A stretch of DNA of 64,000 nucleotides from assembly GCA_964016885.1 (NCBI GenBank), contig OZ024745.1, forward strand, positions 37,076,001 to 37,140,000, written 5' to 3'. The stretch comes from Eledone cirrhosa. Lineage: Eukaryota. The notes under the pieces are model-generated. The model was given only the letters and a program-made list of their open reading frames with translations. It was not told the origin of the DNA and ran no database searches. Position numbers and translations under genes: made by a program. Shown here in pieces: positions 915-58,722 of this stretch. Position 1 is the stretch's first letter. Every line of letters begins with the position of its first letter.

Positions 915-1009
<95 letters not shown>

Positions 1010-1121
1010 TAACTCATGTCTATAGAATCGATCAGATATTAAATATATATATATACGTTATTCCGGGTTGAATCGGAGGTAACCACAGTAAGTAAGGTAC
1101 TCAATACATTGCAGAGTATAA

Positions 1122-1250
1122 AGGTTTTAATATAGATGAGATTCTACAGGACTAGAACTGTTTCATTCTTTAGAAATCATCAGGATTCCTGATGATTTCT
1201 AAAGAATGAAACAGTTCTAGTCCTGTAGAATCTCATCTATATTAAAACCT
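1122..1250. repeat. Perfect palindrome (64-bp arms) formed by two inverted copies of a PLE-type terminal repeat
   Basis: 1122-1185 is the reverse complement of 1187-1250. The same sequence recurs at ~14582-14648, 3406-3442, 53318-53352 and 60294-60381. Confidence 0.9.
1184..1232 (+). ncRNA. Minimal type I hammerhead ribozyme motif
   Basis: gattc-CTGATGA-tttctaaagaat-GAAA-cag ttctagtc ctg-TA-gaatc. Stem I gattc/gaatc, canonical core, stem III cag/ctg, GUA cleavage triplet. Confidence 0.8.
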
Positions 1251-1379
1251 ATATATATATATATATATATATAAGTTGTAATAGAATGAAAACGAAATTT
1301 CATTTCTCACTCTTAGTACGGCACTTACTTATGCTACTGTACGTCTGTATACATATATGTATGTACGTATACATACATA

Positions 1380-1470
<91 letters not shown>

Positions 1471-3991: not shown

Positions 3992-4125
3992 ATATGTATA
4001 TATGTATATATATATATATTTTAATGCGATGAAATACCCATGATCGTTTGGTAGATCACTGATGAGGGACTCATTTTATAACATGTTATCCATGTGCAAC
4101 CAGCAGTATTCTTCTCACCCATATT

Positions 4126-4170
<45 letters not shown>

Positions 4171-12266: not shown

Positions 12267-12354
12267 TGATAAATAAATAAATAAAGGAAGGGAGATAGAT
12301 GGAAATGAGAGAGAAATAAAAATAGAAGGAAGGAAGATATAGTTAGATTTTTAA

Positions 12355-14168
12355 TGAACACGCTAGCTACTATAACTTAGCTTTACTTAAGGCAGGCCAT
12401 AAAGAACAACTCAAATACATACCTGATACAAAACATAACACCACACCTAATGTTAACGATACTTCCCACAACCATAGAATCAACAAACATAGGTCTAAAT
12501 GCATAAATAGGCACCATATACCTAATTTAAATAAACAAAATAATAATACTAATACCACTAGCGGACATAGAAAATACAGAAATAGAAACTACTTGTGGTT
12601 TAATCCAATGTTTAACTCCTCTATTAAAACTAAGCTTCCTCTCACTTTCTTCAAATTAGTTGACAAACACTTCCCTAAGATACATAAATATCATAACATC
12701 TTTAATAGAAAAACTATCAAACTATCATACTCCACTGCTAACAACATAGAATCGCACATTCACAAAATTATCTACATAAGAATTCATAATCAAAATAGTC
12801 CCCATATAAGTTCCATGTCACCAAATACAAAACACACACATATTACATCATCGCAACCAAACACACGTCAAATGCATATTACATAATCGCAACCAAATAC
12901 ACGCCAAACAATACCACCACAATACATCAACAACCTAATTCGGAGCCCCTACATAACAATCTTCAAAATCATGTAGTAGAACCGGCACATAGGAAAGCAT
13001 TTCTATGCAATTGCCACCTACCTGACAATTGCCCTCTACTAAACAGATGCCTTGAGAAAACGTAGTATACTTGTGTACTATCAACTCAGGTAGCTTGGCA
13101 TGGTATTACATTGGTTCCACAGCTGATGTTTTCAAAAAATGGTGGTACGTGCACAGACATTCTATGATTAATAAGAACCAATCAAATACAACAACTCTTG
13201 CCAATAAAATTTGGCAACTCAAAAATGCAGGCACTAAATACGACTGCTAAAGCCTATCAAACTGGTATGTCCCATTGTAGGTTCTGTAATATGGAGCTCT
13301 TCCAAATTCTTAATTTTCGTAAAACCCTTCTTTACAGTAGAATTGAGCGAACCATCTTCTGCCGGCATAAATCAGCAACGGAGTTCCTGAACTTTAGACC
13401 CACTTAACTCCATTTTCTTCTCCTAATTCCTTTTTATACTTTTAGCACTTATTACGATATCTTATTATCACAAACTTCATAATTACGTTGGAATAACCTA
13501 AAAACATTTGTATTAACATCATTATTTTTATTTTTATTTTTATTTGTATTTGCATCATTTATTATCTTATATATATACATCTTTCACCATTTATCTTTAT
13601 ATTTCTCCGCTTAAACATATTTCACCTCGTTCATTTTATTTATAATATAATACATCTCAAACTAGCTATTTTACATCGTAATCTATATTCGTCCGTATAT
13701 TTATTTTCTTGTCTCTCTTCTTCATATCCGTATGTTTATTTTTTTCTCTCTCTTCCTCATATCCCCATATTCATATTAATTTCTACTCCCTCATCCCTCT
13801 TAATCTTCTTCTATTTCTTTCTCATCTTCATTACTTATCCTTCCCCTTTGCCTATGCTACACCCCCCCTTCTCTCTTTCTCTATATATATCTTTATTATT
13901 ATTAATATTATATTTATTTTAATATGATAGGTTGATTTCGTAATTTTGCCGGTTATACATTTAACTATATCTTCCTTCCTTCTTTATTGCTTTCTCTCTC
14001 ATTTCCATCTATCTCCCTTCCTTCCTTTATTTATTTATCATTAATAATATTATTGATATAGTAAATTGAATCTTTAAATTTACCGTTACGCATATATTTT
14101 ATATTTCTTAATGTTCTCTGATGAAATGGTCAAACTTAAATGTATTGTAAATTGAGTTGTTCTTCTCA
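12355..14168 (+). mobile_element. 5'-truncated, degenerate Penelope-like element (C-terminal linker, GIY-YIG region, 3' UTR) with an inverted terminal copy on its left
   Basis: LLWFNPMF...DKHFPK...IFNRKTIKLSYS, CNC...CPL...C and YYIGST motifs. 13965-14168 is an inverted repeat of ~12140-12345. Confidence 0.75.
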
Positions 14169-14632: not shown

Positions 14633-14776
14633 CATCTGTATTAAAACTATATATATATATATATGTGAAAAAATGGGGAGAAGAATACTGCTGGTTGCAC
14701 ATGGATAACATGTAATAAAATAAGTCCCTCATCAGTGATTTGCCGACGATCATAGATATTTCATTGCATTAAAAAT

Positions 14777-14840
<64 letters not shown>

Positions 14841-14881: not shown

Positions 14882-14924
<43 letters not shown>

Positions 14925-15516
14925 AAAAAGGGAGTGCTGCGTGGTTTCACACGGGTTACATATGAATAAAATTAGTCCTTCATCAGTGATCTTCCAACCT
15001 TCATTGGTATTTCATCGCTTTAAAAATCATATACCTCTAGTTGGTGCAAGCAATAACTAAATAAAGTTATTGGGACAAGTAAAATAGGGTGAAGCGAGCG
15101 AGGCATGTAAACAAACAAAGATGGTATTGTAACGGAAAGATAGGAAGAGACAAGTACATGATATCTATAAGCTTAAGCTTGGTGAAATCATGGACGAGAG
15201 ATACAGACCATCGGACCTGGGTGAGATGTGAGGGAGAAAAGGACTTCACGCAGGTCAAACGGGAGGAAGTGAGAGAGGGGAGAAGCAGAGAGTGAGTGAG
15301 TGGAAGTGTGAGGAAGAGGCCAGCTGAGAGAGAGAGTGTGACTGGCAGAGGGGGTAAAAAGAAGGTGAGAGATACAGAGAGAGGGGAAGCAATAAGAAAG
15401 AAACAGACAGGTTTCAGCTGAGTAAAAAATATAAATATAAGAAAAATGGAGTGCTGCGTGGTTGCACATGGGTTACATATGAATAAAATTAGTCCTTCAT
15501 CAGTGATCTTCCAACC

Positions 15517-15520
<4 letters not shown>
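14925..15520 (-). mobile_element. Non-coding element of ~515 bp with a partial tandem terminal repeat, inserted in (TA)n
   Basis: 14925-15003 is repeated at ~15442-15520. Related to 15598-16332, 57697-58672, 14665-14780 and 4020-4130. Confidence 0.7.
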
Positions 15521-15587
<67 letters not shown>

Positions 15588-15597
15588 TATATATATA

Positions 15598-16332
15598 TAT
15601 GAAAAATATGGGGAGAAGAATACTGCATGGTTGCACATGGATTACATGTTATAAAATGAGTCCCTCATCAGTGATTTGCCAACGATCATTGGTATTTCAT
15701 CGCATTAAAAATCATATACCTCACGTTGGTGCGACAATAACTAAAATAAGTTATTGGGACAATTGAAACGCGTAAAGCGAGTGAGACAAGTAAACAACAC
15801 AGGGGAAAGCTAACCGAAGATGGAAAGAAACACAAGCAACATGGTTATTCTGTCAGCATAAGCTGGGTGAATACATGAGCGAGTAAGAAACAGACCTTTC
15901 GCTAGTGAATCCGATGTGAGAAAGAAGGAAAATCGGGTTCGTAGCGGACGGGAGGAAGTAAGAAGGGGAGACACAGAGAGTGAGTGAGTGGAAGTGCGAG
16001 GAAGAGGTCAGTAGAGAGAAAGTGTTAACTGACATGACAGAGGGGACGAAAGAAAGTAAGAGAAACAGAGAGAACGAGGGAGCAGTAAGAGAGAAAGAGA
16101 GAAACATAGAATAGCAGTTTAGGTAAATATATGAAAAATATGGGGAGAAGAATACTGCATGGTTGCACATGGATTACATGTTATAAAATGAGTCCCTCAT
16201 CAGTGATTTGCCAACGATCATTGGTATTTCATCGCATTAAAAATCATATACCTCACGTTGGTGCGACAATAACTAAATTAAGTTATTGGGACAATTGAAA
16301 CGCGTAAAGCGAGTGAGACAAGTAAACAACAC
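15598..16332 (-). mobile_element. Non-coding element of ~530 bp with a ~200-bp direct terminal repeat
   Basis: 15598-15800 is repeated at 16130-16332. Flanked by (TA)n. Confidence 0.75.
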
Positions 16333-16914
16333 ACATATATATATATATATATAAAATTAGGATTTAGCTTCATGCATAGCTGTATGCAGATATGTATTAG
16401 AATTTCGAATTTCTAAAGAAATACGGTATGTTTATAGGTAAACATTATAGGTAAACATTTAGCTACGGCTTTCTAAATGTTTAAAAGTACATTAAATTCG
16501 CGCCCGTATTTGGGATTATTTTTGTAGCCATTTAGAGAATTTTGTGCCAAACAAAAGATAATGGTCAAGAAAAAGGGATGGGGAGAATTGTTCTGGTTCA
16601 GTGAGTATGGCTGATGTGCTGGGGTGTCAAAATTCAGACTTTCTATTCAAATAAAGCAAGTAGAGATATGTATGTTTATTTGTGTGCTGGTGTGTGTGTG
16701 TAGGAAAATGATTCTATTAGTAGAAATGGGGGAGGGAGTTATGTGTGTGTGTGTATGGGTGTTATATGTGTGTGTGTGTATGTGTGTGGGAGTATGGTTA
16801 GCATGTTAAGATGGAGAGAATATATATTTGTGTGTGTAGTAAAATGATTCCGGTAGTAGGAATGGGGGAGGGAGTTATGTGTGTGTGGGGGGTATGGTTA
16901 GTATGTTAAGGTGT

Positions 16915-19894: not shown

Positions 19895-22608
19895 TTTTTT
19901 AAAGATTAAGATGTCCAGAAATGGGAGTTGATCTTGGTTGTATTCCATTGTGAATTGAATGTTGTTATTGATGCCGTTAATTAAATTTTTGAAATCATTT
20001 AGTTAGTCGAGTGTGTGAGACCAAAGAATAAGACAATCATCCAAGTAGCGTTTCCAATTCTCTGATAAATATTTGTGAAGTTCAATCCGTATTTTGATTT
20101 GGAGTGTTCATATATCTGGACTTCCAAGTATGCCATGACTAAGTTAGCATAAGTTGGAGCGACTTTTGTACCCATCGCAGACCCCGATATTTGCTTGTAA
20201 GTACTGCTATCGAAATCAAAAAGTTGTTCTGTAAAATAAATTTTAATCCCTCGGTGATGAAGCTTTTTTCTATTCTGTCAGGTATCTCATTGGGATGTTT
20301 CTCTAGCCAGAATCCTATTGCTTGTAGTCCGTATTGGTGTGGGATCGTTGTGTAGAGATTCACTACATCGAAAGACACAACAATAGTGTCATTATTGACA
20401 TGTTTGGAGAGGTGGTTTAAGAGGTCCAGATCGTCTCTTACAAGGCTTGGTATGTGTTTGAGAATTGGTTTTAGTAGTATGTCTATAAAGTTGCTCAGTC
20501 TGTGTGTTTCACAATGTGGGCCCGCTACAATTGGTCTTAATTTAAGGCCAGTGGGGTATTGTGTGTTTACGCAGGTTGAGGTGGATTCTTTACGGGCATC
20601 GTTAATTATTTTACATTTGGGATCTTCGGAAGTCCGTAAAGGTTGCTGGTTTTGTATTCAAAATGTGTTAAATAATCGCGTTCCTTTTTAGTTATGTCTT
20701 CCTGGTATCGACAAATGAATGTGTGTAATCTGGTCATCGTTTTTGATTGCTGGTAGTTTTTTTTACTCTTTGATAGTAGTTAGTTTCTTGTAAGAGAGAG
20801 AGAGCATAGAATGTTTATATTGTTCAGCATCCATAATGACGACAGTACTTCCCTTGTCCGCTTCCTTAATTACAATGTCAGTATTGTTTTTCAGTTCATG
20901 GATAATCTCCCATTCCCTTCGACTCGTGTTGGGTTTGGGTTTAGGTTGCGGTAGTTGATGGTATGGGAAAGTTGCTATGTGGTCACAAAATTTGTCCAGA
21001 ACTCTGTTCCTACCCTTTGTTGGGCTGTAGCTGCTTTTATTCCGTACATGTAGCTGCTTTTATTGATTGGTCGTTATTCTCCTTGTCAAAAAATTCCTAT
21101 GTGAGACGTAATTTTCTACAGAAGTGTGAGATATCGTCATTTATCTCATTGGGGTTAGAGTATTGTGGTATTGGTGTGAATTTCAGTCCTTTGGAGAGAA
21201 TTTTAATTTGTTGGGCTGAGAAGTTTGTATTTGAAAGGTTGATTATTTTCGGTTTTTCAAAATCGGTTTGTGCTACCGGGTGTCGTGAGTCCTGTAGCCT
21301 TGGTCTAAAAAATGATTTTTCTGAATTGTTTTTTCATGGGTATTATTATATCGAATGGCATTGTTGTGTCTTGTATAGAAGTTTCGGACGTATTGAGGTT
21401 CGGTTTTTTGATGGTCCGGGTTGTAAATTTTGTTCCTTTGTGTGGGTTGGGATCTACAATTTTGGAACAGGTTTTGTGTGGGTTGGGGTCTACGGTTTGG
21501 GAATAGGTTTTGTGTGGGTTGTGACCTGCAGATCCGGTCCTGTCTTGTGTTGGGGGGGGACATTCGTTTTTTTTTTAGTAGGGTTATAGTTTTGTCTATG
21601 GGTTCTGGGATTATCGTCATAGTTTTGCTGGGGCTTAGTTGGACGTTTTGTTACTTTTTGTTGTTATTTGTTGCGAGTGTGGTGTGTGAGTTTTAGTTTG
21701 TTTTAAAAATAGGTTACCTGTATGGTGTTCATTTTTGAAATCCATTTCGTAGTTGTTGAACCAGGTGGCGTTTTTTTCCCATCGCTGGAGGGATGTTAGT
21801 TCTTCATCCTCACAATTTTCTTTCCAAAGTTTTAAGGTTTTTTCATAGAGTAGGCCTTCAGAGTGTCTTGAGATTTCTGTTTCCATCTGTTGGTCGAGTG
21901 ACTTGAATTTTTCTTCGTTGGAGTTAGCTCTTAACCGCAACAGTTTTATTTCTATTTTAAACTTTTCTAAGGCCATCTTTGCCCTAGGTTTTTGTTGGTT
22001 TTCTGGTTCATTCGGGATGGGTTTTATTTTGAGTTTTTTTTGGAGGATGATTGGGGTAGAGTTTAGTCATTTTTCATATATATCTGCCTTGCCATTATTT
22101 TTTAGGAGATTCCAAAAGGCAAATTTGTGGGATGTGAGCTTTTGAGTCCATATATTGATTAGGGTGTTTTTCACTGAGTGGACATCTCATAGATTGGGTT
22201 ATAATGGCTGTTCCAGATTTTGGAGCATTGTTGTTTCAATGGTTTCGATTAGTTTAGTTAATGCTGGAGTAATATTCGTCTCTTGGGTATTTTCTGCTTC
22301 TTCATGGCGTCCTTTTTTATAGATATGTATTTGGTCCACTTTGTTGATCAAAATTGAAAGTTTGGAGGAAATCTCTTTGAGTTCATTTAAGATGTCCTGG
22401 TTCAGTGAGTTGTCATTTTGTTGAGACTTTGGTGGCATTTTCGGTCCTCGTGTGGTGGGTATAAATTAGAAAATGAGTTTTTTTTTTACAAAATGAAAAA
22501 AAAAAACGAGACGTCCTACACGAGTGAAAGTATAAGGAAAAAAAAAAAGATGAAGTCGAAAATGCAACAGTCTTTTTAAGAATATTTATTTGGTTCCTTT
22601 ACCGGTTT
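19895..22608 (-). mobile_element. Degenerate Penelope-like element, 5' portion through the RT domain
   Basis: LRPIVAG, SFDVVNLYTTIPH, AMGTKVAPTYANL, WKRYLDD, IQFTMEY..QLPFLD. Its 5' end matches the terminal repeat at 38020-38150. Confidence 0.85.
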
Positions 22609-23117: not shown

Positions 23118-24050
23118 GAAGCAATACAATTTACCATGGAATGTAATAAAAAGGAACTACCGTTTCTGGATATCCTTATCATTAAATAAGAGGAAAATAT
23201 CAAAACATACCTATTTTACAGACCAACAGACACACACCAATACTTGAATTTCCGATCAGCACACCCCTCACATACCAAAAGAAACTTTCCTTTTAATATG
23301 ACAAGACGCATCTGCACCATAGTAACATGCCCCACACTACAGGAAAAAAGATTATATGAACTAAAAGGGTTCCTTAAAAGACGAATATCTGGTGAACCTC
23401 ATCAATACGGCCATCTCCAAAGCCCAGAACATCCCAGTGACAACACTGAGAAAAACAAAGCAACAGAATAAAATGGAAAAAACAGTTATCTCTTTTGTCA
23501 TCACTCACAATCCAAGGAACTTCAATATTGTGAAAGCCGCTAAACAATATCTCCTGATTCTCTAGCAGTCCCCTAAAATGAATGCACTCGTAAGAGACGC
23601 ACAAATAATATATAGTAGACGCCAAGCACCCAACCTAAAGAAACTGATTACCAAGGCAAAATTTACGTCTAATAATGAAGCAACGCGAGTTAAGAAATTC
23701 GAGGACCCTCGATGCGGAACTTGTGAACACATTGAAGAGGTTGGGCAAATCTCCTTTAAAAACAACCCGTTTTTCACAGTTAATGCAAACATGAATTGCA
23801 AAACCAAAAACTTGATTTACTGTGCAACCTGCCCACAATGTAAAGAAACCGGAACGGGTCTACATGACAGAGTTCGAGTACATAAACAACAAATTAGAGA
23901 CTCTTCTGTCAGAAACACCACATGCAGTGAACATTTCGCAACATACGGAAAGGGAAAATTCACAATATCCCCTTCTTTAAGATATGGTCGGATAACAAAT
24001 ATTTCCGAAAATATAAAGAATTCTTTATTAGAAAGTAAAAACCACTACTG
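23118..24050 (+). mobile_element. Degenerate Penelope-like element, RT thumb plus GIY-YIG endonuclease region
   Basis: IQFTME...LPFLD, YRPTDTHQYLNFRSAHP, CGTCEH, NCKTKNLIYCATCPQC and RVRVHKQQI. Confidence 0.85.
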
Positions 24051-24549
24051 AACCCCCCCCCCCCCCCCCAATGATATTTCATCTTCAAATAACGGGATTC
24101 TTCCCCCTCTGTCTTTTCTTTAAAAAAATCTCATATTGATAAAGAAAAATATCCAAATAGAAATTGATGACACCTGCACTTTCAAACATTCGATCGTTGA
24201 AGAGAAGAAAAACCCTCAGAGGTACACTAACATTTCATTAATTCCCTCTTCCCCACCTCAATGTATATGTGCACTTAAATACTTGAGTAGATGTGTGTGT
24301 AGATGTGTTTGTATGTGTCTGTAGGTGTACAGGTATGTGTATATGTGTGGTCTTAACTATGTTTCTAAGTATCGCCTTACTGACTAGTCCCATATCTGTG
24401 CGTGCCGGGCTTAGTAGTCTACATCTAAGGTTAGAAGTAAAGTCTACCTTGTGATCTTTCAGGGTGAGATTTCTTAGACATTAATTTAGACCTTCGCACA
24501 CACACCTACAGACCATTCCATAAGCTTAACGAAAAACTCAGTTTTTTTG

Positions 24550-25293
24550 CCGCCCTCCCACTATTTTTAGAAACTTCGTAAATAATATCAGTACTAGAAT
24601 CTCAAACCTCTCCTCTAATAAGGCTATCTTTGACAGAGCGGCACCCTACTATAACACAGCGTTAGCTAAAAGCGGCTTCTTGCAACCTATCACTTACTCT
24701 CCCACTAACAACAATAGCAATAAGAAAAGAAAGCGTAACAATAGACAAACTATCTGGTTCTCTCCTCCCTTCTCACTCAATGTTAAAACCAATGTAGGCA
24801 AAAAATTTCTAGCCCTCTTAGATAGACACTTTCCCATAGGTCATAAATACCGCTCCATCTTTAACCTACACAAAGTAAAACTAGGATACTCCTGCGCTAA
24901 GAAAATGAAGGCCCACATCACCAACAGCCTTAAGAACAACACCCTACCAGGGTTCTCTTGCCGTAAGCCCGAAGCTTGTCCCCTTCAACAGCAATGCAAC
25001 ACACCCGCTGTAGTTTATGAAGCTGTTGTCACTTCCAACCGACCAAATCAACCACAGGAGGTCAAATCCTACTGATTTTTGACAATCACTTTGACCATAT
25101 ATGGAATTACCCCTTGAGAAGATCGGCTATTTAAATACCAGGATAAATTTTCATTTAGTCCAGAATTAGCCGTCGAAACGGCTTGAGCTCAGCTGTCGGG
25201 GTCTTACTGGTTCCTATTACCCACTCTACTACCTCAAGTATTGAGTACTTTGGTGCGTTATGGTCCACCTGGTTCCTTACCACATTTCCTTCG

Positions 25294-30592: not shown

Positions 30593-31191
30593 TTACGGTT
30601 TTGGGTTAGGGTCAGAATTAGGATTAGGTTTGAATTAGAATTGAGTGTTGGAATTAAGGGTTAGCAAACAAGTAAGCAAGTAAGTCTGTTGATATGCAAA
30701 TCTTGCCGATCAGATTACATTTATTATATATATATATATATAGGTTGACGGGACTAGTGCGAGAGAGAGACGTATATAGAGGCATATTCAATATGCGCGT
30801 AAAATAAACATTCATAAGTCACGTGGCGGGTATTTTAAGCTGTGATCATGTCATTACTAATACATACATACATACACACGTGTGTGTGAGACTGTAACAA
30901 ATAAATTGAAAACAACACAGCAAAGGTTACAGTAGAATGAAGATATTTATTAGTGTAACGCTTGATATAGTAAGAAAAGAGCCGTAACGTTTCGGACACG
31001 CTCTCCTTCATCGATAGATAGAATGAGTAATAAAAGAAATAGAAAGATAGAGGACAGTGAGAAGAGAAAGAAACGGTAAAGAATTTGGCCGAATATAATA
31101 GTATACACACGTGCCTTTTCTAAAAGAAAATTTTCCGTTCCTTCCATTTTCACTCTCTATATTTCTATTTCATTTTTTACTTCTCATTCTA

Positions 31192-31227
31192 TCTTCTGAT
31201 GAAGGACTTGCGTCTGAAACGTAAAGA
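31192..31227 (+). ncRNA. Minimal hammerhead motif (degenerate inverted relative at ~30980-31015)
   Basis: tctt-CTGATGA-aggacttgcgtct-GAAA-cg-TA-aaga. Confidence 0.7.
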
Positions 31228-31339
31228 CTCTTTTCCAACTGCATCAAGCGTTAAACTAGTATATTTATTAATTGTACTGCGTTGTTTACTTTATTGTTTC
31301 CATTTACTTTTTGTATATATATATATATATATCTATCTC

Positions 31340-37999: not shown

Positions 38000-38947
38000 T
38001 ATATTAGAAAGTGAGGTTTCTTTACAAAATGAAAAAAAAACGAGGTGTCCTACACGAGTGAAAGTATAAGGCAAAAAGATGAAATCGAAAATGCAACTGG
38101 AGTCTTTTTTTATAAAAATATATATTTATTTGGTTCCTTTACCGGTTTCGCAGTTCTTTTGCTTTTCAAAAGTAGAATTGAGATGGAGGGTTTGTGGTTT
38201 TTCTCATATCTGGTTGGTCTTTGAATGTTACTTCTGTTTTATATGGAAAAAAGTGGCTCGAAATGCTAGGTTTTTAGAGAAGTAATTTGGTTGGTTGGTG
38301 AATAAGTATAATAAGTTTCACGCCAGTTCGCGTTACAAAGTTCTTATTACATTTGCCTTAAAAAGGGGGGGAAGGGGGGGGGGGGGGGATCAGGTTGTTT
38401 TTTCATATATGAGTGAAGTTTGGTTGCAGTCACGTGAATAAGCACATCAGCTTTCGCGCTAGGTTGTGTTTGAATTTATTTTTACTTAAAAAAAGGTGGC
38501 TCACGAAGGCTTTTTTTTTATAAGTGTAATTTGATTAGTTATAAATGAAATTATGACTGTCACGTGAACAAGTACATTAAATTTCGCGCCCGTATTTTGG
38601 AATTGTTTTTGTAGCCATTTAGAGAATTTTGTGCCAAACAAAAGATAATTCGTCAAGAAAAAGGGATGGAGAGAGTTGTTCTGAGTATGACTGATGGGCT
38701 GAAATGTAATTTGATTGGTTACAAATGAAATTATGACTGTCACGTGAACAAGTACATTAAATTTCGCGCCCGTATTTTGGAATTTGTTTTGTAGCCTTTT
38801 AGAGAATTTTGTGCCAAACAAAAGATAATGGTCAAGAAAAACGGGATGGGGAGAATTGTTCTGGATCAGTGAATATGGCTGGTGTGCTGGGGTGTCAAAA
38901 TTCAGACTTTCTATTGAAATAAAGCAAGTAGAGATATGTATGTTTAT

Positions 38948-38993
<46 letters not shown>

Positions 38994-39330
38994 GAAGATG
39001 ATTCTATTAGTAGAAATGGGGGAGGGAGTTGTGTGTGTGTGTGTGTGTGTATGTGTGTGTGGGTTAGCATGTTAAGATGGAGAGAATATATATATTTGTG
39101 TGTGTGTAGAACATGATTCCGTTAGTAAAAATGGGGGAGGGAGTTATGTGTGTGTGGGGTGTGTGGTTAGCATGTTAAGGTGTTAGAGTATTAACGTATG
39201 CTAAGGTTTATTTAGTTCTGGTTTTTATTTTCTAAAATAGAAGGTGTTACGTGTGTGTGTGTGTATGTGTCTGTTTGGATGGTTAGCATGTTATGGTGTT
39301 GACATAATGTATATTAAACTATATTTAATG
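38000..39330 (-). mobile_element. Penelope-like terminal repeat / 3' UTR with an internal ~180-bp tandem duplication
   Basis: 38020-38150 matches 22478-22608, 38750-39180 matches 16490-16915, and 38525-38690 is repeated at 38705-38870. Inverted partial copy at 39900-40110. Confidence 0.7.
38137..38172 (-). ncRNA. Minimal hammerhead motif with U3-A8 core
   Basis: ctt-TTGAAAA-gca aaagaac tgc-GAAA-ccgg-TA-aag. The inverted relative at 39936-39971 reads ctt-TAGAAAA-gcag aagaa ctgc-GAAA-ccgg-TA-aag. Confidence 0.6.
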
Positions 39331-46090: not shown

Positions 46091-46515
46091 AGGGCGGTGA
46101 ATTGGCAGTATCGGTAGAGGGTCGGACGCCATGCTTTGACGCATAGAGTTACGGCCCTTGCCATTCTGAGTTCAAATCCCGCCGAGGTTAACTTTGCCTT
46201 TCATCCTTACGGGGTCGATAAAATAAAGTACCAGTAATGTACTGGGTAATTGCTGGCCTTGTGCTAATAGTAGAAACAATTATTTGTTAATGAGGGCGGT
46301 GAATTGGCAGAATCGGTGGACCGTCAGACACATTGCTTCGCGGCATAGAGTTACCACCCTTTACATTCTGAGTTCTAATCCTGCCTAGGTTAGCTTTGCC
46401 TCTCAACCTTACGGGTTCGACAAAATAAAGTATCAGTCATGCACTGGGGTCGATTTAATAGACTTTCCCCCTCCCTTCAAATTGCTGGCCTTGTGCCTAA
46501 AGTAAAACAATTATT
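46091..46515 (+). mobile_element. Two tandem tRNA-derived SINE copies
   Basis: gggcggtgaattggcag...gagttcaaatccc...ctttcatccttacggggtcgataaaataaagtacc, present twice. Confidence 0.8.
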
Positions 46516-46704
46516 TGTTGATTGTCAAAGTTCTATCGTCACACATTCTATGACCTACTCAGTAGCTAATTTTGTTACTTTGTCACTCCTTTTGTTCTGT
46601 TTTACACCATCTTGATTTTATGAACAGTGTAAAATAAAACAAAGGAGAGATACTGAGGATGTCACAGAACGTGTGACGAAAGAACTTTGACAATCAACAA
46701 ATAA
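46511..46704. mobile_element. MITE / fold-back element (~194 bp)
   Basis: Long imperfect inverted repeats ttatttgttgattgtcaaagttct...agaactttgacaatcaacaaataa. Confidence 0.7.
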
Positions 46705-47476: not shown

Positions 47477-48595
47477 TCTCCTTATAATATATAACCAGCA
47501 ATTTCTCTGTCTGTCTGTTCGACGCGTAGAGAGAGAATGAGAGTGAAAGAAAGAGACAGACTACAAGAGGGGGATAGCGGGAGGGAGAGAGAGAGAGAGA
47601 CGCTGGAAGAGGGGAAGGAAAGCTATGTCTTGCTGTCTGCATTACGATACATATATATATACACACACACACTGAGCGCGTCATAATGACGTAATGCAGA
47701 TAGCCAGACATACAGACAGATATTATAAGGGCGCAACGTTATATCTATGTATCTATCTAAAAAGAAAGACTAAGAATTATATAGAGAGAACGCTAAATCG
47801 CCTAATGCGGTCCCTAGGGCATTGGAAATTTGAAATAATTTTTGCTCAAGACACTCACAGGACCATAAGTATTACATGTCTAAAGTTTGAAAACAATCGG
47901 TTGGATGGTTCTCAAGTTTTAGTGAGCTGACAGACATACAGACATTCTCTGTTTTAGATATATAGACTAGCAGAAAACCGCCCCGCCGGTGGTTTTCTGC
48001 TAGTCTATATATATAAAACTGAGGATGTCTGTCTGTGTGTGTGTGAGTTTGAATCCCTAAAACTAGAGAAGCACCCAACCGACTGTTTTCAAACTTTACA
48101 CATGTAATACTTATGTTTCAGGGAGTGTTCTGAGCAAAAGAAATTTCAAATTTTCAATGCCCTAGGGACTGCATAAGGCGATTTAGCGATCTCTCTCTAT
48201 AATTCTTAGTGTTTCTCTTTTTAGATAGATACATACATATAACGTCGCGCCCTTATAATATCTGTCTGTATGTCTGGCTGTCTGCATTACGTCACTTCCT
48301 ACAATTCTCTCAGCGTCCAGAACGCGCCCTTATAATATCTGTCTGTATGTCTCGCTGTCTGCTGCCTCCGATTATTATGCCACCCTTGCTCAAAACAAAT
48401 CTCACACTCATTCCCCAAACAGTTGGTAAGTGCACACAACTTCTTCCTCACGTTTTAAGCCACAGTGTTGCTTACTTACGTACCACCAGACCCTTTCTTC
48501 TTTGCCAGCCGTGGTTGTGGCAATACTCAGCTTAGCTAAGGCGGTTATATATTTCACAATACCTTATCCCGTGCAACGGCGGGTACCATTGCTAG
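47477..48595 (+). mobile_element. Composite non-autonomous Helitron with an internal ~600-bp inverted repeat
   Basis: A|TC start, hairpin cccgtgcaacggcggg plus CTAG|T end. Inverted arms at 47687-47980 and 47990-48294. Confidence 0.65.
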
Positions 48596-56398: not shown

Positions 56399-56668
56399 CA
56401 TATATATATATACATATATATATATATAAATATATATATATATAAACAATTAAGTTAAAAATGTACATCCACATATGTATACTGAAATACTAGTATGCAT
56501 ATGATTACACACACGTATACATATGTAGATGTACCGAGTTTTTCACTGGTCACTTTACTGTGAGTGTCCAGCTATTCTGTATGTAAACACACAGACAAAC
56601 CGGTTTTTAGAGTCATACTGGTTTTTGAGGAAACACCTTTCCTCTATTCTCCAGAAAGCCAGACAAGG

Positions 56669-56713
56669 AATATTGAACTAGTTTCGATGTTGTTACATCT
56701 CATCAGCAATATT
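56669..56713 (-). ncRNA. Type I hammerhead ribozyme motif (copy 1)
   Basis: aatattg-CTGATGA-gatgt aaca acatc-GAAA-ctag-TT-caatatt. Confidence 0.9.
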
Positions 56714-57134
56714 TACCTATCTTCCGGCCTCTCTAGAGAATCGTAAAAGCACATATCGTTATATGCTTTTTCTATGAAAATTAGTAGTGGGCAGACTAAT
56801 TTGCATAGAGCGTGAGTACGTACCGGTTCAACGGAGACGATAAAAACAAATAACGAAACGAAATTAAATTTCGTTTCGTTTGTAACTCACTTTTGTATGA
56901 CTGACGCTTAAACAATTAAGCTAAAAATGTACATCCACATATGTATACTGAAATACTAGTATGCATATGATTACACACACGTATACATATGTAGATGTAC
57001 CGAGTTTTTCACTGGTCACTTTACTGTGAGTGTCCAGCTATTCTGTATGTAAACACACAGACAAACCGGTTTTTAGAGTCATACTGGTTTTTGAGGAAAC
57101 ACGTTTCCTCTATTCGCCAGAAAGCCAGACAAGG

Positions 57135-57179
57135 AATATTGAACTAGTTTCGATGTTGTTACATCTCATCAGCAATATT
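57135..57179 (-). ncRNA. Type I hammerhead ribozyme motif (copy 2)
   Basis: Identical to copy 1, 466 bp away. Confidence 0.9.
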
Positions 57180-57333
57180 TACCTATCTTCCGGCCTCTCT
57201 AGAGAATCGTAAAAGCACATATCGTTATATGCTTTTTCTATGAAAATTAGTAGTGGGCAGACTAATTTGCATAGAGCGTGAGTACGTACCGGTTCAACTT
57301 TTACGATTCTCTAGAGAGGCCGGAAGATAGGTA

Positions 57334-57378
57334 AATATTGCTGATGAGATGTAACAACATCGAAACTAGTTCAATATT
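57334..57378 (+). ncRNA. Type I hammerhead ribozyme motif (inverted copy 3)
   Basis: 7-bp stem I, 5-bp stem II, palindromic ctag stem III, GUU triplet. Confidence 0.9.
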
Positions 57379-57667
57379 CCTTGTCTGGCTTTCTGGAGAA
57401 TAGAGGAAAGGTGTTTCCTCAAAAACCAGTATGACTCTAAAAACCGGTTTGTCTGTGTGTTTACATACAGAATAGCTGGACACTCACAGTAAAGTGACCA
57501 GTGAAAAACTCGGTACATCTACATATGTATACGTGTGTGTAATCATATGCATACTAGTATTTCAGTATACATATGTGGATGTACATTTTTAACTTAATTG
57601 TTTAAGCGTCAGTCATACAAAAGTGAGTTACAAACGAAACGAAATTTAATTTCGTTTCGTTATTTGT

Positions 57668-57696
<29 letters not shown>

Positions 57697-57698
<2 letters not shown>

Positions 57699-58668
57699 AG
57701 AATAAACGTGCTGCGGAGTTGCAAATGGGTTACATATGAATAAAGTGGTCCTTCATCAGTGATCTTCCAACCATCATCGGTATTTCTTCGCTTTAAAGAC
57801 CATATACCTCCGGTTGGTGCGAGCAACGGCTAAAGAAAGTCGTTGGGACATGTAAATAAAGGGAACAGCGAGAGTGTAAACAAACAAAGATGGTGAAGCA
57901 ACGAAAAGTGAGGAAGAGCGAATCAAGTCCAAAAATTTCCATGAATATAAGTTCGGTGAAATCGTGAACGAGAGAGAATAAAGACCATCAAACCTGGTTG
58001 AAATGTGAGCAAGGAAGAAATTTCGCACAGGTCTAACGGGAGGAAGAAGGGGTCTAGTCTGTGAATTCGGTAAACATAAGTTCTGTGAAATCGTAGACGA
58101 GAGAGAGAAAAAATGCCGACCGGCCTGGCCAAGCGTGCGAAAGAAAAGAATTACGCACAGGTCAAACGGGAAGAAGGAAGAGGAGGAGGAGAGGTAGTAA
58201 CAGTGAGTGAGTGAGTGAAGGGTGAGGAAGAGGCTAACAGAGAGAGTGACTGTTAGAGAGGGTAAAGATACAGAGAAAGAGGAAGCAGTAAGAACGAAAT
58301 AGACGGGTTACAGCGGGAGAAAAAAAAATATGTGTAAATATGAGAATAAACGTGCTGCGGAGTTGCAAATGGGTTACATATGAATAAATTCCTTCCTTGC
58401 TCACATTTCAACCAGGTTTGATGGTCTTTATTCTTTCTCGTTCACGATTTCACCGAACTTATATTCATGGTAATTTTTGGACTTGATTCGCTCTTCCTCA
58501 CTTTTCGTTGCTTCACCATCTTTGTTTGTTTACACTCTCGATGTTCCCTTTATTTACATGCCCCAACGACTTTCTTTAGCTGTTGCTCGCACCAACTGGA
58601 GGTATATGGTCTTTAAAGCGAAGAAATACCGATGATGGTTGGAAGATCACTGATGAAGGACCACTTTA

Positions 58669-58672
<4 letters not shown>
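57697..58672. mobile_element. Non-coding element of ~640 bp with partial tandem and inverted terminal copies (family of 14925-16332)
   Basis: 57697-57744 is repeated at 58340-58388. 58392-58672 is an inverted copy of ~57735-58016. Confidence 0.75.

Positions 58673-58722
<50 letters not shown>

What the first reader, a model, noticed from the sequence alone, without database searches (positions are those of the whole stretch)
14974..15044. Scrambled hammerhead: the three catalytic strands in a non-circularly permuted order, with covarying stems
Seen in the sequence: on the element's sense strand the motif reads ccaacN-nga-GGTAT-A-tgatttt-(9-10 nt)-GAA-ATACC-(6 nt)-Ngttgg-aagatca-CTGATGA. Copies are at 14974-15044(-), 15659-15729(-), 16191-16261(-), 57747-57817(-) and 58592-58662(+). 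GGTAT/ATACC forms stem III ending in the U16.1-A15.1 pair, A is H17, and tgatttt/aagatca forms stem I abutting CUGAUGA. The pairs covary between copies: one stem I position is U-A, U-G or C-G, and one outer-stem position is G-C, U-G or C-G. Two truncated copies (14665-14778 and 4017-4130) begin at or within ~4 nt of the predicted cleavage site, although flanking (TA)n blurs this. Established knowledge: types I, II and III are the three circular permutations of the strands, and this order (UH strand, GAAA strand, CUGANGA strand) is none of them. Inference: a pseudoknotted or dimer/trans-assembled ribozyme that releases ~515-640-nt non-coding monomers. Main caveat: I cannot find a convincing stem II.
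Basis: partly seen in the sequence, partly recalled or inferred. Interest (0 to 1): 0.8.

Follow-up and report, generated by a model that had tools for sequence, protein, structure and literature searches.

The report
Split-core hammerhead ribozyme in animal repeats
More than ten thousand copies of a jumping repeat in this animal genome carry the catalytic letters of a self-cutting "hammerhead" RNA in a scrambled order, predicted to be held together by six helices in a layout not found in the papers searched, and likely used to cut the repeat's RNA into single units.

Summary
The motif is real and far above chance: 10,182 exact genomic matches, reversed-pattern control 0. The scrambled order is not new. 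Eckert et al. 2023 (PMC10085705) described and tested it as 'type-SGC', but found it only in metatranscriptomes. The strand after CUGANGA pairs with a second upstream strand, and a hairpin lies between the two, predicting a four-way junction at A9/G12. All six helices recur in three sequence families of this genome (A = the window's, B, C). Covariation: 91.9% of cells paired vs 85.0% shuffled, 0/500; 20 co-changes on an independent tree vs 4.1±2.0. An SGC-type stem II pairs only 11-42%, so this is not a type-SGC member: the chain is opened between A9 and stem II, a site that paper assumed unbreakable. The carriers are tandem or inverted 425-800-nt repeats in (TA)n, like retrozymes. 5' ends pile up just past the predicted cut in family C, weakly in A and B. 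Cleavage and expression are untested.

The parts
14975..15076 (-). Whole predicted ribozyme, copy 1 (family A), six helices
15073..15076 (-). Strand a (GUCC); pairs with a' after CUGAUGA
   Evidence: GC 45 / AU 28 at A1 columns 18-125; coordinates
15051..15072 (-). Hairpin b between strand a and the stem II strand
   Evidence: 5 of 7 pairs with two-sided change; also in MFE folds
15046..15049 (-). Strand c: upstream (5') strand of stem II
   Evidence: pairs with 15015-15018; 97.5% paired in A1; 7 bp with canonical G10.1-C11.1 in family C
15039..15044 (-).
   Evidence: 5 of 6 pairs with two-sided change
15030..15035 (-). Stem III 3' strand, U16.1 and H17; predicted cut between 15030 and 15029
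   Evidence: H17 A51/C43/G0 in 94 copies not selected on the core
15023..15029 (-). Stem I 3' strand
   Evidence: 4 of 7 pairs with two-sided change
15006..15018 (-). Stem II 3' strand c', position 11.1, G12-A13-A14 and stem III 5' strand
14987..14999 (-). Strand d' and stem I 5' strand
14975..14986 (-). CUGAUGA core, one unpaired nucleotide and strand a' (GGAC)
   Evidence: N7 is the one variable core position, C19/T75
15660..15760 (-). Predicted ribozyme, copy 2; cut 15715/15714
16192..16292 (-). Predicted ribozyme, copy 3; cut 16247/16246; 532 nt from copy 2
57748..57849 (-). Predicted ribozyme, copy 4; cut 57803/57802
58560..58661 (+). Predicted ribozyme, copy 5, in an inverted partner of copy 4; cut 58606/58607
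14921..15521 (-). Element carrying copy 1: about 1.2 units of 517 nt between (TA)n runs, 5' end about 25 nt after the cut of the previous unit (ends approximate)
15601..16333 (-). Tandem element carrying copies 2 and 3, between (TA)n runs (ends approximate)
57690..58675 (.). Tandem-plus-inverted element carrying copies 4 and 5 (ends approximate)
14650..14778 (-). 5'-truncated copy starting at the predicted cut
4020..4130 (+). 5'-truncated copy starting about 3-4 nt after the predicted cut

Best explanation
This is a family of short tandem repeats, over ten thousand copies strong, whose RNA is predicted to fold into a hammerhead ribozyme opened between A9 and stem II, and which likely cuts itself into unit-length RNAs that a Penelope-like reverse transcriptase would copy back into (TA)n sites. 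Shown: order of strands is a, hairpin b, c (stem II 5' strand), d, stem III/UH/stem I, stem II 3' strand/GAAA/stem III, d', stem I/CUGANGA, a'; six helices with compensatory changes; a core whose only free positions are N7 and H17. Inferred: c/c' stacks under the A9.G12 pair as stem II, while a/a' and hairpin b form the other stack of a four-way junction; d/d' plays the role of the stem I-II tertiary helix of type-SGC ribozymes; G12/G8 acid-base chemistry cuts after H17; four helices would clamp the two ends of a monomer and favour re-ligation into a circle; reverse transcription starts at an internal AU-rich site matching the (TA)n target and runs either off the cleaved 5' end (short copies) or on through a circle or uncut multimer (tandem copies).
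For: Covariation, family A (82 copies, 35 pairs): 91.9% paired vs 85.0±0.3 shuffled, 19 pairs with two-sided change, 0/500; slid controls 28-47%. Mostly family B (43 copies, 27 pairs): 91.5 vs 82.1, 0/500. On a tree built from flanking body sequence only (55 of 82 copies), 20 co-changes on model pairs vs 4.1±2.0, 0/300. Family C, with different letters in every helix, fits all six helices (88% of cells, 18 copies). Upstream stem II pairs 97.5% / 94.9%; SGC-type stem II 11-42%. Core in 94 copies not selected on it: 88-94 of 94 at each fixed position, N7 C19/T75, H17 A51/C43/G0. Linker lengths match type-SGC: 3-4 nt from stem I to stem II, 0-1 nt from the stem II strand to the joining helix. 5' ends of family C: 19 of 70 at -3..+14 vs 3, 3, 4, 6 in the next 17-nt bins; anchored in the tail, 11 of 30 at -3..+16 vs 2 at -23..-4 and 2 beyond +34. 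Tandem and inverted copies in (TA)n match what PMC8557442 describes for Penelope-like elements; such elements with RT and GIY-YIG domains are in this genome.
Against: No cleavage assay and no RNA data. In the window's family the pair next to G12 is not the canonical G10.1-C11.1: column 48-86 pairs in 35% of 74 copies and the alternative N-W pair in 75.6% of 82. Within A, stem II has one covarying pair (UA 4 of 80) and stem III almost none; several linker positions are as invariant as the core. Family C shows no covariation of its own (474/500 shuffles as high). Unsupervised MI ranks only 6 model pairs among the top 22 in A1 and 3 in A2. 5' ends are spread over -3..+16 rather than peaked at 0, are biased by AT microhomology, and the excess is weak in A (2 of 30) and B (4 of 30). 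No autonomous partner carrying the motif was found in 279 and 492 loci. Families were found with core-containing patterns, so lineages with a changed core would be missed.
Confidence: 0.7

Rival explanations
1. The fold is real and derived from such a ribozyme, but the window's family A has lost or weakened cleavage (mismatch next to G12) and keeps the structure for packaging or reverse-transcriptase recruitment; only B and C cut well.
For: C.U, C.A or G-U at 10.1-11.1 in the window copies; 35% pairing at that column; weak 5'-end excess in A; A is the most numerous family (10,182 vs 1,252 and 124 pattern matches).
Against: Core letters are kept across all A subfamilies while stems change in compensated pairs, with N7 and H17 free; older A subfamilies pair that position; (TA)n-junction rate drops about five-fold upstream of the site in A.
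Confidence: 0.15
2. It is an ordinary type-SGC hammerhead whose stem II forms with the strand after CUGANGA, possibly in a dimer or in trans.
For: Same S-G-C order, same short stem I-II linker and joining helix as PMC10085705.
Against: That pairing holds in only 11-42% of cells under three registers; the strand after CUGANGA covaries with an upstream strand; a trans partner would offer the same non-matching letters.
Confidence: 0.05
3. It is a structured retroelement RNA that is not catalytic; the hammerhead words are coincidence or bind a protein, and 5' ends pile up because reverse transcriptase stalls in the pseudoknots.
For: No direct activity data; 5' ends are not sharp; some ends fall within the helices at +14..+33.
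Against: The letters shared by three families are the hammerhead core in its proper helical context; in family C most ends fall after the enzyme would have passed every 3' helix strand, which stalling does not predict (inference).
Confidence: 0.08
4. The repeats are pseudo-LTR fragments of an autonomous Penelope-like element (for example Naiad, reported to lack canonical hammerheads) rather than a separate non-autonomous family.
For: Tandem/inverted structure and (TA)n targeting are Naiad traits; one B copy abuts a Penelope-like ORF (L218).
Against: That junction is absent from the 29 other copies of the same element examined; no recurrent ORF link upstream in 279 loci or downstream in 492 loci; units repeat head to tail without an RT frame. 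Queries were three Penelope-type proteins, not a Naiad.
Confidence: 0.1

Closest known systems
Type-SGC hammerhead ribozyme (Eckert et al. 2023, PMC10085705; abstract, introduction, methods, results, discussion and supplement parts 1 and 8 read)
   Same: [quoted passage not shown]
   Different: Stem II's 5' strand and the joining-helix strand lie upstream of the cleavage strand, not after CUGANGA; two extra helices sit between A9 and 10.1; the chain ends lie in a new helix. Found in a DNA genome at high copy, whereas the paper found type-SGC only in metatranscriptomes.
Pseudoknot-containing hammerhead (Zhan et al. 2024, PMC11300833; abstract, introduction and structure sections read)
   Same: Helix II's place is taken by a helix with a strand from upstream; precedent that the core tolerates this.
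   Different: It keeps the type I order and a short loop from A9 to G12 closed by G10.1-C11.1; here A9 and G12 lie on separate strands in reversed order.
Non-LTR retrozymes of animals (Cervera and de la Pena 2020, PMC7229834, passages; Li et al. 2026, 10.64898/2026.07.22.740005, parts 1-3)
   Same: Short tandem repeats with one ribozyme per unit, thousands of copies, Penelope-like elements in the same genome.
   Different: Known ones carry type I hammerheads and give RNAs of about 170-400 nt; here a permuted six-helix ribozyme and 425-800-nt units. Both surveys searched with type I (or type III) descriptors, which miss this order.
Penelope-like element pseudo-LTR hammerheads (Cervera and de la Pena 2014, PMC4209133, passages)
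   Same: Unpaired nucleotide after A9 in families A and C; tandem and inverted insertions.
   Different: Those are minimal type I motifs thought to act as dimers; this has full stems I and III and is not tied to an RT frame.

Membership tests
Hammerhead ribozyme (class) | Core C3-U4-G5-A6-N7-G8-A9, G12-A13-A14, A15.1-U16.1, H17 not G | tested here: met
   88-94 of 94 copies not selected on the core; N7 C19/T75; H17 A51/C43/G0; same in B and C
Hammerhead ribozyme (class) | Stems I and III flanking H17 | tested here: met
   93% and 97% paired in A1; 98% and 97% in A2, with two-sided changes
Hammerhead ribozyme (class) | Stem II under A9.G12, usually closed by G10.1-C11.1 | tested here: inconclusive
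   Helix present in all three families; closing pair G-C in B (31 of 42) and C (16 of 17), mostly mismatched in the window's family A
Hammerhead ribozyme (class) | Mg2+-dependent self-cleavage after H17, lost on G5/G8/G12 change | not testable with these tools
   Only indirect 5'-end data
Hammerhead types I, II, III | Circular order CUGANGA, GAAA, UH with a nested three-way junction | tested here: not met
   Order is UH, GAAA, CUGANGA; no Rfam match at gathering score in six loci, and no hammerhead match at these coordinates among the 150 of 246 window matches listed
Type-SGC hammerhead | Block order S, G, C | tested here: met
Type-SGC hammerhead | [quoted passage not shown] | tested here: met
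   3-4-nt linker; d/d' helix 93% paired in A1, mean 6.3 bp vs 4.8 with shuffled partners in A2
Type-SGC hammerhead | Stem II formed by the strand directly after CUGANGA (at most 1-2 nt inserted) | tested here: not met
   11-42% paired in three registers vs 95-98% for the upstream strand; descriptor
PK hammerhead | Type I order with loop II pairing to an upstream hairpin loop | tested here: not met
   A9 and G12 are not joined by a loop; order reversed
Non-LTR retrozyme | Short tandem repeats with one ribozyme per unit, no RT frame | tested here: met
   Units 425-700 nt (most A), 550-800 (B), about 545 (C); no tRNA head in six loci; only two 93-105-codon pyrimidine-rich frames in the window's units
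Non-LTR retrozyme | Type I hammerhead | tested here: not met
   see above
Non-LTR retrozyme | Expressed as unit-length linear and circular RNA | not testable with these tools
   No RNA run could be examined
Non-LTR retrozyme | Penelope-like elements in the same genome | tested here: met
   RT (PF00078) and GIY-YIG (PF01541) frames at L218; homologous pieces in the window
Penelope-like pseudo-LTR | Motif recurrently attached to an RT/endonuclease frame | tested here: not met
   only one-off junctions (L218, L081)

The most novel reading that the evidence does not exclude
A seventh natural hammerhead architecture: a circular permutation of the non-circular SGC form, opened inside the CUGANGA block and re-stitched by a four-way junction, active in vivo, and the engine of a large class of animal retrozyme circles that all type I/III searches have missed, possibly including partners of Penelope-like clades said to lack ribozymes.
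Probability: 0.6. Interest if true: 0.85.

Novelty: new variant of a known kind. Interest (0 to 1): 0.76.

Why it matters
It would be the first non-circularly permuted hammerhead in the DNA of an organism at scale, as far as the papers searched show ('type-SGC' occurs in one paper of the library). It breaks the stated assumption that CUGANGA and stem II cannot be separated, so the six-permutation scheme would be incomplete and current descriptors would have a blind spot in animal genomes. Three families with different letters give ready-made constructs for testing how a four-way junction can replace helix II and whether end-clamping favours circularisation.

Tried and rejected
Expression: no RNA holder listed (three contig runs of unrecorded kind, one study), which says nothing about expression; laying two of them confirmed presence only and may be the source sample. 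Rfam: nothing at gathering score in six loci. Earlier scan notes: none. Family-B pattern in metagenome and viral contigs: 0 and 0; family-A pattern in metagenomes: 43 chance hits. Penelope ORF next to a B copy at L218: a one-off junction; L081 likewise. Twister in B-A-C order: family A has look-alike words (UAAUGC, GUCCCAA, GAGGG; compared by eye with the alignment) but the twister helices cannot form and families B and C lack the words. C/D-box snoRNA: considered from recall, no Rfam support. Single-sequence folding recovers a/a' and b (and d, III in several) but cannot model the pseudoknots; z-scores -0.6 to -4.3. Unsupervised MI was dominated by subfamily structure. A loose pattern gave mostly known families and chance hits but revealed family C. 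Weinberg et al. 2015, the source of the PK variant, could not be read, so any further variants described there were not seen. Supplements of the bioRxiv preprint were not seen.

Full report
Observation. The window lies in a 3.0-Gb, (TA)n-rich genome with chromosome-scale contigs; I take it to be an invertebrate animal, which is an inference and was not tested. The motif is a high-copy repeat: 7,056 exact matches of the three-block pattern, 8,034 of a CUGANGA-block pattern and 10,182 of a GAAA-plus-CUGANGA pattern, each with reversed-pattern control 0. Copies end at fixed AU-rich internal sites that run into (TA)n, have variable 5' ends, and come as partial tandems and inverted pairs.

The order is known. 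Eckert et al. 2023 (PMC10085705) split the hammerhead into blocks S (cleavage site), G (GAAA) and C (CUGANGA) and showed that S-G-C ribozymes cleave, with all four helices tested by disruption and rescue. [quoted passage not shown] 'type-SGC' occurs in no other paper of the library; two searches found no paper, and the two papers listed do not, by title and start of abstract, concern this layout.

The missing stem II. Reading further upstream showed that the strand before GAAA pairs with a strand just 5' of the outer stem, and that the strand after CUGANGA pairs with a strand further upstream, with a hairpin between them. In 82 family-A copies chosen to span subfamilies (of 125 parsed), the 35-pair, six-helix model has 91.9% of cells paired against 85.0±0.3% in shuffles, 19 pairs with two-sided change and covariation 0.264 against 0.139, all 0/500; slid controls give 28-47%. 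The a/a' helix switches GC (45) to AU (28); stem II has CG 71 / UA 4. Because shuffles ignore relatedness, I built a tree from flanking body sequence alone for the 55 copies with enough body: model pairs show 20 co-changes against 4.1±2.0 for shuffled partners, maximum 11, 0/300. An SGC-type stem II pairs in 11-42% of cells in three registers, against 97.5% for the upstream strand.

Two more families. Looser patterns found family B (1,252 matches, control 4) and family C (124, control 0). B has a five-pair stem II ending in G10.1-C11.1 and a/a' starting directly after A9; the 43-row alignment (B plus six intermediate or family-A rows) gives 91.5% vs 82.1%, 0/500, with AU 10 / UA 27 at the first a/a' pair and two-sided changes in stems I, II and III. 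C has different letters in every helix, a seven-pair stem II and seven-pair stems I and III; 18 of 30 loci with the upstream part fit at 88%, without covariation inside the family, as expected of one old burst. Across families the fixed letters are the hammerhead core and little else. In 94 family-A copies found without using the core, each fixed core position holds in 88-94, N7 is C19/T75 and H17 is A51/C43 with no G. Against this: several family-A linker positions are equally fixed, unsupervised MI is dominated by subfamily structure, and the pair next to G12 is mostly mismatched in the window's subfamilies.

Model (inferred). In SGC-1 of the paper the strand after CUGAUGA reads stem II strand, one nucleotide, joining-helix strand (parsed from the oligos). 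Here the same run (c, 0-1 nt, d) lies upstream and is tied to the cleavage strand by 0-5 nt. The molecule is therefore an SGC ribozyme circularly permuted at a new point, between A9 and 10.1, where helix a/a' and hairpin b are inserted. Core, a/a', b and c/c' meet with zero or one unpaired nucleotide, as in a four-way junction with c/c' stacked on A9.G12. The PK hammerhead shows that helix II can be replaced by a helix using an upstream strand without changing the chemistry (PMC11300833), but it keeps the type I order.

Evidence for cutting. None is direct. 5' ends of genomic copies should collect at the cut if the template is a cleaved RNA. Family C: 19 of 70 copies anchored on GAAA start at -3..+14, against 3, 3, 4 and 6 in the next 17-nt bins; of 30 anchored in the tail, 2 start beyond +34, 6 at +17..+33, 11 at -3..+16 and 2 at -23..-4. 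Family B: 8 of 72 vs 5, 3, 3, 1 (three of the 5 are (TA)n over-extensions by eye) and 4 of 30 vs 1. Family A: of 81 copies, 13 start at -1..+31 and 3 at -2..-34, with eight rows mis-placed by the script at higher values and left out of these bins; 2 of 30 vs 2 when tail-anchored. A hand tally of the 96 distinct loci among the first 100 of 795 (TA)n junctions gave 23 at -4..+1, 53 at +2..+16 and 20 at -31..-5, about 0.29% vs 0.06% per nucleotide; the tail control is at most 0.17%. So there is a step at the site, clear in C, but no sharp peak, and microhomology blurs it.

Carrier. Units are mostly 425-700 nt in A, 550-800 in B and about 545 in C, carry no tRNA head or Rfam match and no RT frame. 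Tandem and inverted insertion into (TA)n is what PMC8557442 describes for Penelope-like elements, notably Naiads, which lack canonical hammerheads. Penelope-like RT and GIY-YIG frames are in the genome and the window. No recurrent link between the motif and such a frame was found in 279 loci upstream or 492 downstream; the one clean junction (L218) is absent from 29 other copies of that element. The best reading is a non-autonomous retrozyme-like family (PMC7229834; 10.64898/2026.07.22.740005) with a different ribozyme; mobilisation by a Penelope-like enzyme is inferred.

Verdict. My estimates: six-helix fold 0.9; self-cleavage at the predicted site in at least one family 0.75, in the window's family 0.6; retrozyme life cycle 0.65. 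It works like a type-SGC hammerhead but fails that type's stem II definition. New variant of a known kind; interest 0.76.

Noticed in passing
window 56653-56724(-), 57119-57190(-), 57323-57394(+): Three canonical type I hammerheads (Rfam HH9, 36.5 bits, below gathering) with palindromic stem III, in a tandem-plus-inverted element directly beside copy 4.
   Followed up: no
window 31196(+), 60751(+): Minimal Penelope-type hammerheads with CUGAUGA, one unpaired base, a short stem II and GAAAC; 61402(-) and 63389(-) look similar and sit in a 567-nt direct repeat.
   Followed up: no
window 19937-21258(-), 23383-25051(+), 12347-13244(+): Pieces of Penelope-like RT and GIY-YIG frames.
   Followed up: partly
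L290-L319; window 16485-16914 and 38522-39315: A very young Penelope-like family (40 scored copies 97-100% identical over the ORF end) whose CA-rich 3' sequence resembles these window stretches, just upstream of copy 3.
   Followed up: partly
window 15188-15469(-) and 15853-16170(-): Both units hold a 93-105-codon frame starting at the same ATG about 75 nt after the predicted cut. Probably chance in pyrimidine-rich sequence, but PMC13725137 links hammerhead cleavage to translation initiation.
   Followed up: no
L201, L202, L203, L352, L165:1066-1195(-): Rare subfamilies intermediate between A and B, some with N7 = A; useful for ordering the families.
   Followed up: partly
L218:4900-5250 and L081: One-off chimeras joining the repeat to Penelope-like frames without a (TA)n run, suggesting template switching or nested insertion.
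   Followed up: yes
L267 and L269 (G000:C1 34.43 and 35.46 Mb): Near-identical multi-copy loci 1 Mb apart; segmental duplication or an assembly duplicate. They count twice.
   Followed up: no
window 952-1440, 30896-31312, 46511-46704, 47687-48294, 56842-57671: Long inverted repeats, common around these (TA)n-targeting elements.
   Followed up: no
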